Shown: positions 43,293 through 46,760, numbered from the whole stretch's first letter. The stretch is 61,658 nt of DNA, filler included, from Hausera hauseri (GCA_046269625.1; 11 parts of 11 records of this genome joined end to end with filler, not necessarily neighbours in it); one strand, 5' to 3'. The notes: a model not told the origin generated them from the letters alone. A program made the numbers and translations.

Positions 43293-43728
43293 TACTTCCA
43301 GCTGCTGCAACTGCATCTGTATCATATGGTACGACAAAGGCTACTGCCATAGATGTGGTCATTAATAAAAAGTAGGAAGATGCATAAAGGATGACTAATT
43401 TAATGCACCGTTTTTCCAATCGATTGCTAATTATCAATACTGGAATTTTTGGAAATCGGATATTATTAATTTGCACCCATTTAATATGTGCAGGTGTACC
43501 GCACTGTCATGAATCGATATGCACTATCGATTAGCACTTTACCCCGATCGATTCGATCAATACTGCACTGAAGCGATCGATATGCAAAATGTACAGTGCC
43601 ATGGCAACGGTGCCTAAAGGCAATGTCACCATGCACATGTACCGATCGATAGTGTACCGGGTGCACTGCCGATTAACACATGCGCAATATCGATTTTACC
43701 GATTACCCCCTCCCGGTAGGCAATAACA
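43293..43728 (-). repeat. Putative 3' LTR (distal end undefined), with PPT at 43729-43742
   Basis: Minus strand AAGTAGGGGGAAAA|TGTTATTG; the following ~260 bp are rich in ATCGAT and TGCAC motifs; ATTAAA further on. Confidence 0.55.
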
Positions 43729-43856
43729 TTTTCCCCCTACTTGCCTAATATGCAATTTTCTTGGTATATAAAACATTTGGGCCATTATGCTTATATATAT
43801 TCATAAAATAAGAACGCTATGCATAATGCTTTATTAAAATAACGTCTGAAAGTTCG

Positions 43857-46157
43857 TCATTCGAGATCATTATCACTGGTATCATTTACATTACTTTTAC
43901 AATTATCTATATCTTCAGAATTATCGGTTCTATCCAAAATGCTCGATGGAATATCAGGACCTTTAGTGTGATTATCAATTAAATACGTTATGAGAAATAG
44001 TGGATAAGCCTGTTCTCCACGGTATATAACATATTCAGCGTAACTTAGTCCACCAATACTAGGCCGACCAACAACTGAATGATGTCCTGGTGGAGCATGA
44101 GCCATTTTTGATCCGGTTAATTGCAAAAACGTTTTCCCCAATGAAACCCGGCAAAGGAGTAGTTGCTGCGGACATATGTAACAAGTACGATCTTTATGAC
44201 TAGGACATCCAGTACCACCTCCCAAACCATAAACATGCTGATTTGATTTTGAAGAATTTTCTGCAAAGTAAATTTCTGCCCCAAACATAATGCACACTTC
44301 TTGAGAATATTTGTCAATTTCAAATCCAAGACTAATTAATGTTTGGATAGGTTTTTTTGACAATTGAATTTCTGTTAGTCCTTTTGTAAGTAATACTTTG
44401 TCAGAATCACCGCTCCACATGTCGTTCATCCAATAGGATTCATCAGTGGTGTATGTAAAATCTTTGTTTCTAACGACGTTCAGAAACATTACATGTTTCA
44501 TGTAATTAACCATTTGATCTGCAGTAACAGCGGGCTCAATAACTCGAAATATATTTTTAATCCATTTGCATGTCAAATGTCGTGTGAGTCGAAAGGTCGT
44601 GTAATGATGTCTTAAAGCTACTGGATCAGAACAGCGTTTTTCTACTTCGAATTTATCCTTTAACGCTTCTTTAACCGTCGGCCGCACAACAGATAAAGTC
44701 TGTAGATCAGCAATTATGTTTATTATAATTTCGACAAATTGCCTTTTAAATGTATGATAATTTATTCGAGAAGAAAGTGTTTCATTAGAACTACGATCGA
44801 CTAACGATGACTGGTTCAAGTCGAGTAATTTCAAACAATCAGGCAGTGGTCCATTGTTTCCAAAATTATTATGAACATTTATTGAATTGATATGGGCAAG
44901 TCTAATCCATCGACAAACATAGCGGATAAATAAACGAAGGGGTTTTAAATCCTCGCCCAAAATATAAATTTGTTCGTGCAGAATATCGCCAAAAAAATTT
45001 AAGCATTCCGAAGAATAGCGGAAATGTACATCCAGAAAAGTGATATTAGCACAGGTGATTTTTATGGTATTTGTAGAATGTAAAATGGTACTTGCACTCG
45101 AAGTTGGAAATCCGTATAGGTCGCTGTTAATATACAAATGAAGCATACTCCGAAGGTTGTTCGAATGTGTTTCGGTTATTTTGCGAACACACTCCAATAA
45201 AATGACTTGAACTTGAGGCTTAGATAACTTATATTCTATTTTGAACATCAAATGGACAGCGCTCAACATTTTCTGATCGTGTGAATGAATTAAAACGTGA
45301 TTTATCTTTGAATCCAATAAATGATATATAGCTGGAAAAATTCTGGAAAATACTAGAGAAGCATCTGCAAGAAATTCGTAAAGTGTTCTCACTTCGTTTT
45401 CATCTGTTGTATATCGTAGTAAAGTGGCCAAAACTGTTAATGTTAAAGCTTGAATTGAATATTCATTTAATACGTCAGGCTCAAGAAGAACATTATTTTC
45501 ATGAGATACAGAACCCTGTGGAGTACTGTCAATAGCAATATTTATTTCATGATTTTGGTCCATTTGATCAGTTCCTTCGTAGCCACTGGAAACTTCTAAC
45601 TGAATTTGATCTACCAGCAAGTCGTTGTTTTTTTCCAGAAATATGTTAGTACATTTGTTCGTAGAACTATTTGAAATAAACAAAGTCGAACCATGAGGTT
45701 TATTAAGACCACCATCAAAATTAAACTTCGAGTCATCCAATCGTTTTGATGGATCTACACATAAAACGTCTAACAAAAGCTGCTTGGCTGAAGGAAAATG
45801 GAAGCATCTTTTATTGACAATATCCGGCTGGAGAAGACTTTTTGTTGACGATTCTAATTTGGCTTCTTCGAGATACAGAAACGATAGGTCAAATGGATTG
45901 ATTCCAAAGAGCATGTAAAAGAAAATACAACCTGCTGACCAATAATCACATTTTGATGTATATTCGGCAACAGTTGAATTACTGTGTAGTTCCGGTGCTG
46001 AATAAGCCGAACTTCCAAATATTTTAAATTGGTACCTTTGCCTAGTGCTGTAATTTCTCTTCCTTAACTCCAAGGGATCTGGTGAAATGATAATTTCAGG
46101 GATTTTAGTTAGACAGTTGACACAATCAAACGCTTGTGTCATCTCATATTTATACAA
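43857..46157 (-). CDS. Mosaic 766-codon ORF: kinase C-lobe + neurofibromin fragment + INTS1 fragment + tankyrase PARP C-terminus
   Basis: GSSAYSAPE...CDYWSAGC...DPSKRL (46157-45735); [35 protein letters not shown]...LLDSKIN (NF1, 45515-45252); [15 protein letters not shown]...FKRQFVE...YMKHVMFL...ESYWMNDMW...LISLG (INTS1, 45251-44310); [28 protein letters not shown]...[13 protein letters not shown] (TNKS, 44288-43977). Confidence 0.85.
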
Positions 46158-46760
46158 ATCAGCGTTTAATCCAAAATCGGTCGGTTTTAAGTGACCTTTT
46201 CTGTAACAATTATATTTTCAGGTTTCAAATCTCTGTAGAACACGCTGGCTATGAATAAATCGAAGTGCAACTAACAGCTCAGCAATCCAAAACCTGATAA
46301 TGGGAAATTTTTTTGATGGTAAAGATTCAATGAAGTCTGAATTTCTACTCATTAAAGCACTATGGGCTTTGCCTGTCATTTGATTTTGTCTCGAATATAT
46401 CAAACAACGAGACAAATTTCAAACATGTGATATATGTACACAACATTTTAAAGCCCAACCAACTATAGCTTCAATACAAACTATAACTGAGTGGTTTATT
46501 AAACAGAACGTCTGTAGAACCCTTGGAGTCCAAATACCACAATTAAGCAAAGCATTTCTTTTTCTTAATAAACTAATATAATTAATTGCAATATCATCGT
46601 AACCATCGAATGATTTGATAAATTTGGAACTCAACGTTTTCATATAGTAAGGTTTTTTCTTGTATTTCATCAAATAACAATTGCCATAACATCCATAATT
46701 CACCAAACCAAGTAGTTGAAAATCGGTGATTTTTATGGAACTATGCCTGCCTTTTCGTAA
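46158..46760 (-). pseudogene. NDR/LATS-like AGC kinase N-terminal part (frameshifted), continuous with the mosaic ORF
   Basis: DFQLLGLVNYGCYGNCYL...YYMKTL; RFWIAELLVALRFIHS; broken [18 protein letters not shown]; long insert between DFG and APE as in NDR/LATS. Confidence 0.75.

What the first reader, a model, noticed from the sequence alone, without database searches (positions are those of the whole stretch)
43293..46760. Four host genes stitched in frame inside a probable LTR retroelement: an mRNA-mosaic gene factory
Seen: one uninterrupted 766-codon frame contains, all in sense orientation and without introns, an NDR/LATS-like kinase C-lobe, ~90 aa of neurofibromin, ~310 aa of INTS1 and the last ~105 aa of the tankyrase PARP domain. 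Junctions are abrupt (SAVH|LMFKI at 45252/45251; EVCI|MFGA at ~44289). About 115 bp past the stop lies a PPT followed by TGT. Known: LTR elements can capture cellular mRNA by RT template switching (maize Bs1, retroviral oncogene capture), and giant planarian Gypsy elements (Burro) carry accessory cargo. Inference: a non-autonomous LTR element has serially recombined co-packaged mRNAs. Frame retention over three junctions suggests filtering for translatability (NMD escape) or function, for example dominant-negative fragments; INTS1 belongs to a complex that terminates Pol II transcripts. The PARP piece keeps the catalytic Y and E but lacks the H of the HYE triad.
Basis: partly seen in the sequence, partly recalled or inferred. 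Interest (0 to 1): 0.88.

Follow-up and report, generated by a model that had tools for sequence, protein, structure and literature searches.

The report
Five-gene mosaic retrocopy in LTR element
Pieces of five host genes lie head to tail on one strand in front of a repeat that is likely the end of a retrotransposon, likely a decaying product of reverse transcriptase jumping between packaged RNAs, a kind of accident already described in mouse and maize.

Summary
The mosaic is real and larger than reported. A 4,023-bp contig (43293-47315) carries, on the minus strand: a TRMT2A RNA-binding domain (new, E 5e-10), an NDR/STK38-like kinase, 88 aa of neurofibromin, a 321-aa unidentified piece, and the last 104 aa of the tankyrase PARP domain, then a purine tract, TGT and a repeat. 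INTS1 was not confirmed by any search. One public run with different alleles bridges two junctions, so misassembly is unlikely. The NF1 piece runs without introns across two human intron positions. Corrections: the kinase includes its N-lobe but is broken by frameshifts and carries an 87-nt GT..AG insert that is probably a retained intron; the run's copy shares a frame break and lacks the ORF's first ATG. The LTR is probable, not proven: no second LTR, primer site or target duplication, and its repeat depth is patchy. Best reading: a decaying multi-gene LTR-mediated retrocopy, like the four-gene mouse 'Super' retrocopy (Tan 2016) and maize Bs1. Function is unsupported, although the 786-codon stop-free frame is not fully explained. 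Novelty: new member of a known kind.

The parts
47010..47243 (-).
   Evidence: phmmer E 5e-10 to human TRMT2A RRM 7ntn and 1.3e-4 to 7pv5; run X1 joints at 47189/47190 and 47106/47109
45738..46760 (-). Diverged NDR/STK38-like kinase, N- and C-lobe, with the NDR-type insert before the activation-segment end; broken by frame shifts near 46229 and 46200 and a stop at 46220-46218
   Evidence: best PDB hit STK38, E 9.8e-11 with stops read as X; Pfam Pkinase; six-frame translation
46373..46459 (-). 87-nt insert beginning GT and ending AG, holding an in-frame stop, at the kinase hinge: probable retained intron
   Evidence: 41 surplus residues against STK38 between the two aligned blocks; GT..AG pair of this kind has a 3.1% chance per site; also in X1 contig 46269-46540
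43857..46217 (-). Stop-free frame of 786 codons; first ATG at 46142
45516..45737 (-). Linker of unknown origin holding the kinase/NF1 junction
   Evidence: no Pfam or NCBIfam match for 45450-45770
45252..45515 (-). Neurofibromin fragment, crossing two human intron positions without introns
   Evidence: E 2.5e-23 to human NF1 7r03 from residue 2577; 56/82 identical to Clonorchis NF1; human exon r.7807-7907
44289..45251 (-). 321-aa host-gene-like piece, unidentified; INTS1 possible but unproven
   Evidence: only relative is unnamed P0013, 46% over 90 aa, E 4.5e-15; no INTS1 hit
43974..44288 (-). Tankyrase PARP domain, last ~104 aa, with catalytic Y and E
   Evidence: E 6.4e-55 to tankyrase-1 (82 of 104 identical by my count on the printed alignment); Pfam PARP positions 63-143 of 199
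43745..43973 (-). Acidic tail, stop (43859-43857) and AT-rich 3' UTR-like stretch with AATAAA at 43835-43830
   Evidence: sequence; X1 contig 43691-44092 with no differences
43729..43738 (-). Polypurine tract directly before TGT
   Evidence: 1 site on this contig, 0.048 expected per shuffled strand
43293..43728 (-). Probable 3' LTR, cut by the contig end; motif-rich (ATCGAT 7 times, 0.11 expected), made of modules shared with abundant repeats
   Evidence: X1 depth 25,582-309,465 in 43293-43697 against 4-76 elsewhere

Best explanation
Five host-gene pieces (TRMT2A, an NDR-like kinase, NF1, an unidentified gene, tankyrase) lie in sense order before a purine tract and a repeated end, and likely form a decaying non-autonomous LTR element whose coding core was likely replaced by co-packaged host RNAs through repeated reverse-transcriptase template switches. 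Shown: the pieces, their order and strand, two junctions in a second haplotype, the missing NF1 introns against the human gene, the broken kinase, the purine tract and a repeated 3' end. Inferred: host RNAs were packaged in virus-like particles of an autonomous Gypsy or BEL element; the enzyme switched from element RNA to a host RNA and back, probably over several cycles, since the kinase is far more diverged than NF1 or tankyrase; the kinase came from an incompletely spliced RNA, leaving one intron; the chimera is moved in trans and may exist in a few copies. Frame-keeping is likely a survival filter on the element's RNA (escape from nonsense-mediated decay) plus youth of the downstream pieces, not a host function.
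For: Piece identities. All five on one strand. NF1 piece is continuous across human L2602|A2603 and V2636, the ends of human exon r.7807-7907; trematode model P0006 breaks at the first of these places. X1 contigs at depth 5-8 join with unknown sequence between at 47189/47190, 47106/47109 and across 45390-45448, which brackets the NF1 boundary 45429|45428: compatible with intron-bearing parents (weak). X1 contigs bridge tankyrase to the repeat (43691-44092) and middle piece to tankyrase (44091-44593, 4 differences in 503). Purine tract + TGT beyond chance. Precedent: four genes plus an Alu in one mouse LTR retrocopy; 14 of 17 fly cases in frame (PMC5131818). Gypsy elements and another captured-looking piece (NUP210 ahead of gag) are in the same window.
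Against: No second LTR, primer-binding site, target duplication or gag/pol on this contig. Depth in the first 30 nt of the presumed LTR is low (bin 43698-43832 mean 48; 38-98 at 43714-43726) and patchy further in (21 at 43510, 73,773 at 43519), so only modules are abundant. Only a depth-4 contig links the cargo to this end, while the tankyrase piece has depth 27. The kinase keeps an intron-like insert. Parents were not seen, so junction microhomology and parental introns are untested. Zero stops in 786 codons is unlikely under neutral decay beyond about 3% divergence (P 0.02-0.08 at 3%, under 0.01 at 6%). NF1|middle and kinase|NF1 junctions are not bridged by any of the 8 of 3,299 pieces listed.
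Confidence: 0.62

Rival explanations
1. Mixed or DNA-level origin: a genomic kinase paralog with its intron was fused to retroposed pieces, or a DNA element (Pack-TIR, Ginger, Helitron) gathered genomic fragments, and the repeat at 43728-43293 is a separate insertion or a subterminal repeat array.
For: Intron-like insert in the kinase. The 3' repeat is modular, with ATCGAT 7 times, as subterminal arrays of DNA transposons are (recalled). Most tankyrase-bearing X1 contigs are not seen to continue into this end. Pack-TIRs exist in animals (PMC8277862, passages).
Against: All five pieces are sense (1 in 16 if orientation were random). NF1 piece lacks introns at two human positions. TGT lies on the inner side right after a purine tract, as for a 3' LTR. 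No terminal inverted repeat found.
Confidence: 0.2
2. The chimera is a translated gene under purifying selection: an NF1-HEAT/helical/PARP-half fusion that acts as a decoy or scaffold for the host or the element.
For: 786 stop-free codons over three junctions (1 in 27 by chance), and the TRMT2A piece is in the same register in the window. 6 of 13 listed window-versus-X1 differences in the ORF are synonymous against 21-28% expected (P 0.05-0.13). NF1 piece changes 4 of 31 invariant columns, within the range of true orthologs (0-6 of 31-37).
Against: The kinase is broken in both samples: X1 contig 45590-46214 has no length change that offsets the break near 46200. The first ATG (46142) is changed in that X1 contig. 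The PARP half lacks the triad His and differs from human tankyrase at 22 of 104 sites, some in the active-site region. Only 40 of 161 differences were listed, 13 in the ORF.
Confidence: 0.13
3. Assembly chimera or library artefact in a fragmented, host-contaminated assembly.
For: The window is 11 short contigs joined by N-linkers, one with vertebrate-like CpG depletion. Two junctions are not bridged in the listed pieces. Only one run holds the stretch.
Against: X1 carries fixed differences from the window yet bridges the same middle/tankyrase junction and the tankyrase/repeat link, with depth in 30 of 30 bins. Pieces are diverged and decayed, unlike fresh library chimeras.
Confidence: 0.05

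Closest known systems
LTR-mediated chimeric retrocopies of animals, esp. the mouse 'Super' retrocopy (Tan et al. 2016, PMC5131818; abstract, Results parts 1-2, section 8 and passages read; supplements not read)
   Same: Partial sense mRNA pieces of several unlinked genes in one LTR-bounded unit, no poly(A) tail, mostly in frame, able to move again as non-autonomous elements.
   Different: Five genes against four plus an Alu; a flatworm-like host not sampled there; one probable retained intron; only one end of the element is seen and microsimilarity could not be tested.
Maize Bs1 (as cited in PMC5131818; primary papers not read)
   Same: Non-autonomous LTR element with pieces of three host genes in a chimeric ORF.
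   Different: In Bs1 one of three pieces is out of frame; here four pieces share one stop-free frame, but no translation is shown.
Planarian Burro/GYPSM1 elements (PMC6431247, passages)
   Same: Flatworm LTR elements with host-like domains.
   Different: Burro is autonomous, over 30 kb, with domesticated whole domains inside a gag-pol polyprotein; this locus has no retroviral genes and holds truncated, decaying housekeeping fragments.
Pack-TIRs (Tan et al. 2021, PMC8277862, passages)
   Same: Transposon-carried gene fragments; can keep introns.
   Different: DNA-level capture between terminal inverted repeats; none found here, and the NF1 piece looks spliced.

Membership tests
LTR-mediated multi-gene retrocopy | Partial pieces of two or more host genes in one unit | tested here: met
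   TRMT2A, NDR-like kinase, NF1, tankyrase identified; a fifth piece has a cellular-like relative
LTR-mediated multi-gene retrocopy | Parental introns absent | tested here: inconclusive
   Met for NF1 against human exon ends and hinted for TRMT2A by X1 joints; probably not met at one kinase site; own parents not available
LTR-mediated multi-gene retrocopy | Polypurine tract followed by TG-starting 3' LTR | tested here: met
   43738-43729 then TGT; 0.048 expected per shuffled strand
LTR-mediated multi-gene retrocopy | 3' end is a repeated LTR | tested here: inconclusive
   43293-43697 far deeper than the cargo in X1, but patchy and low at the terminus; no copy elsewhere in the window
LTR-mediated multi-gene retrocopy | Matching 5' LTR, primer-binding site, target-site duplication | not testable with these tools
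   Contig ends at 47315 inside the TRMT2A piece and at 43293 inside the repeat; no genome held
LTR-mediated multi-gene retrocopy | Microsimilarity at switch points | not testable with these tools
   Needs parental mRNA sequences
LTR-mediated multi-gene retrocopy | No L1 hallmarks (poly(A) tail) | tested here: met
   No poly(A) run between stop and purine tract
INTS1 fragment | Detectable sequence or fold similarity to INTS1 | tested here: inconclusive
   No hit in PDB, Pfam, Atlas or protein searches; fold model useless, pLDDT 31.7. A by-eye likeness to human INTS1 is recalled, not from any call
NDR/LATS kinase | AGC kinase with long insert between DFG and APE | tested here: met
   STK38 best hit, aligned through the insert
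NDR/LATS kinase | Intact catalytic domain | tested here: not met
   Frame shifts and a stop at the catalytic loop, stop in the hinge insert
Burro giant Gypsy elements | Cargo domains inside a gag-pol polyprotein | tested here: not met
   No retroelement Pfam domain in any of the six frames of the contig
Pack-TIR | Terminal inverted repeats around the cargo | not testable with these tools
   Neither outer end is on the contig; no long inverted repeat within it

The most novel reading that the evidence does not exclude
An amplifying non-autonomous LTR family in a flatworm-like fish-associated animal grows by serial in-frame capture of host mRNAs, once spelling a five-gene protein from the TRMT2A start to the tankyrase end, and still makes an NF1-INTS1-PARP-half fusion that is kept open by selection; neighbouring contigs with NUP210, tubulin, Sec7 and ABC pieces beside Gypsy genes mark a genome where such capture is routine.
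Probability: 0.12. Interest if true: 0.75.

Novelty: new member of a known kind. Interest (0 to 1): 0.4.

Why it matters
As it stands it is an extreme example of a known exon-shuffling route: five genes where the published animal record I read has four, in a lineage not sampled before. It would matter more if the open frame is under selection, because it would show LTR elements building long multi-domain proteins stepwise, and if a genome survey shows many such mosaics, because the rate and frame bias of capture could then be measured in one genome.

Tried and rejected
No genome held, so parents and other copies could not be located. INTS1 tests all blank: PDB phmmer and profile, Pfam and NCBIfam, Atlas, best scores 0.83 and 0.81, no INTS1 row, INTS5 at 0.80 and 0.78, word-index searches of 563-2000 aa and 2017-5000 aa proteins (176-562 aa not searched with this piece alone), AlphaFold pLDDT 31.7 and Foldseek with no E under 0.001. 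These blanks are weak evidence for a fast-evolving gene. Pattern scans for the repeat gave one hit each, both chance matches of 22 and 20 nt with nothing else shared (L001; L002). No relative in viral contigs. Rfam: two sub-threshold hits only; no tandem array of note. No RNA holder listed. The low depth at 43833-43967 in X1 may be a filter hole. X1 depth was not used as a copy number. The position of the matching human STK38 intron is recalled; a paper search did not confirm it. Literature searches for a flatworm case or a five-gene case found none in the listings. Scan look-ups for this genome and sequence were empty.

Full report
Setting. The window is 11 short contigs joined by N44-TTAATTAATTAA-N44 linkers. 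The finding fills one contig, 43293-47315 (4,023 bp); neighbouring contigs are not physical neighbours. No genome is held. The best NF1 hits are trematodes (64-71%), and over an 80-residue core the window piece is 68-69% identical to two trematodes, 64% to a spider and 54-55% to fish, so the host is probably a flatworm. One contig has vertebrate-like CpG depletion (0.33 against about 1.0), which suggests host or food contamination.

Observation. The stop-free frame runs 46217-43857 on the minus strand, 786 codons; the first ATG is at 46142. It holds a kinase C-lobe, an NF1 piece (E 2.5e-23; 56 of 82 identical to Clonorchis, ending at 45252), a 321-aa middle piece and the end of the tankyrase PARP domain (E 6.4e-55). 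A purine run at 43738-43729 is followed by TGT; 500 shuffles give 0.048 such sites per strand.

Upstream in the same frame lie the kinase N-lobe (STK38 best, E 9.8e-11 with stops as X) and, at 47243-47010, the RNA-recognition motif of TRMT2A with one stop (E 5e-10). The cargo is five pieces, all sense. The kinase is broken: frame shifts near 46229 and 46200 put the catalytic loop in another frame. Between its two aligned blocks it has 41 residues more than STK38; 87 nt of this surplus start with GT, end with AG and contain a stop (46459-46373). A pair like that arises at 3.1% of sites. I recall a human STK38 intron at this hinge glycine, but could not confirm it in print. I rate it about 65% a retained intron.

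INTS1. No tool supports the name. PDB, Pfam, NCBIfam, the Atlas and two length-banded searches gave no INTS1 hit. A full scan of 1.84 billion representatives gave one relative, unnamed P0013 (46% over 90 aa, E 4.5e-15). The fold model was unusable. I see a by-eye likeness to the N-terminal third of human INTS1, but that is recall. The piece is a host-gene-like fragment of unproven identity.

Is it real? One public run, X1, holds 69% of the sampled words. Laid on the contig it covers 30 of 30 bins and shows fixed differences from the window, so it is probably another individual or copy, though it may be related to the source sample. Of 3,299 pieces 8 were listed. One (44091-44593, 4 differences) bridges the middle/tankyrase junction; one (43691-44092, no differences, depth 4) bridges tankyrase to the purine tract and repeat. 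The NF1/middle and kinase/NF1 junctions are covered but not bridged by a listed piece. Misassembly is unlikely.

RNA or DNA origin? Human NF1 has an exon r.7807-7907 (PMC7349720 and PMC6966666, table passages). By the PDB alignment its ends fall at L2602|A2603 and V2636, both inside the captured piece, which is continuous there. A trematode gene model breaks at the first site (P0006). In X1, contigs of depth 5-8 join with unknown sequence between at 47189/47190, 47106/47109 and across 45390-45448, which brackets the NF1 site at 45429|45428. These fit intron-bearing parents but are single contigs with 26-55 letters on the short side. Five sense pieces would occur 1 time in 16 at random. Against this stands the kinase insert, also present in X1.

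Is the end an LTR? X1 depth is 25,582-309,465 over 43293-43697 and 4-76 elsewhere. But depth is low at the presumed terminus (38-98 at 43714-43726), swings from 21 to 73,773 within ten bases near 43515, and loose ends show the abundant repeat shares only a module of about 50 nt there. No copy occurs elsewhere in the window; pattern scans gave chance hits. It is probably a rare LTR variant built from shared modules. No second LTR, primer site or retroelement gene is on the contig.

Function. For: three in-frame junctions (1 in 27), no stop in 786 codons (P 0.02-0.08 at 3% neutral divergence, under 0.01 at 6%), 6 synonymous among the 13 listed ORF differences (P 0.05-0.13; only 40 of 161 rows were shown), and NF1 invariant columns kept as well as in true orthologs (4 of 31 changed). 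Against: the frame was picked because it is open; the X1 contig over 45590-46214 has no length change offsetting the break near 46200, so the kinase is broken in both samples; the first ATG is altered in that contig; the TRMT2A piece has a stop; the PARP half has no His. In-frame products are also the rule in young LTR retrocopies, 14 of 17 in fly (PMC5131818). I put function at about 13%.

Mechanism. Most likely (0.62): host RNAs were co-packaged in particles of an autonomous LTR element, reverse transcriptase switched templates, and the chimera re-entered the cycle as a non-autonomous element, adding pieces over time. The kinase, the most diverged piece, may be the oldest and came from an incompletely spliced RNA. 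Frame-keeping probably reflects RNA survival and recent capture. The pieces, order, two junctions and decay are shown; packaging, switching, serial order and copy number are inferred.

Comparison. Tan et al. 2016 describe the same mechanism across animals, including a mouse retrocopy of four genes plus an Alu; I did not read its supplements, which may say whether that case is in frame. Bs1 carries three genes. Burro elements differ in being autonomous with whole domains in a polyprotein. Searches found no flatworm or five-gene report in the listings. Two earlier scan notes describe single-gene captures in other genomes (not checked).

Verdict. Real, slightly larger than reported, ordinary in mechanism. 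New member of a known kind; interest 0.40.

Noticed in passing
window 5261-6490 (-), with 1073-5096 and 7257-7658: Intronless NUP210 Ig domains 1-4 with one stop lie just upstream of a Gypsy gag/pol on the same strand, with a dUTPase further up: probably another captured mRNA.
   Followed up: partly
window 7824-13278: Alpha-tubulin C-terminal piece (8307-8919, -), Sec7 piece (9169-9564, -) and ABC-transporter membrane piece (11885-12298, +, E 6e-8) share a contig with Gypsy pol remnants.
   Followed up: partly
window 13720-16258 (-): TRAF-like RING and MATH ORFs on a contig with an integrase remnant; MATH/TRAF is known Burro cargo.
   Followed up: no
window 19347-27703: Retrovirus-like provirus with a 1,062-aa pol-like ORF and CpG o/e 0.33, unlike the other contigs: probably vertebrate contamination.
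   Followed up: no
window 36779-43192: Intronless TFIIB (40771-41679) between mariner pieces; the contig's two ends share an identical 77 bp, probably an assembly overlap.
   Followed up: no
window 52070-52715: Imperfect 646-bp palindrome, 71% self-complementary.
   Followed up: no
window 27804-36678: TCAC-type microsatellite contig and a 175/176-bp satellite contig.
   Followed up: no
window 43833-43967: X1 depth drops to 4 just after the PARP homology ends while the tankyrase piece has 27: most copies may have another 3' end, or the records were filtered.
   Followed up: partly
L001 1-7598: Chance hit; its 442-, 670- and 1,056-aa ORFs look like a virophage or Polinton-like virus to my eye, untested.
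   Followed up: no
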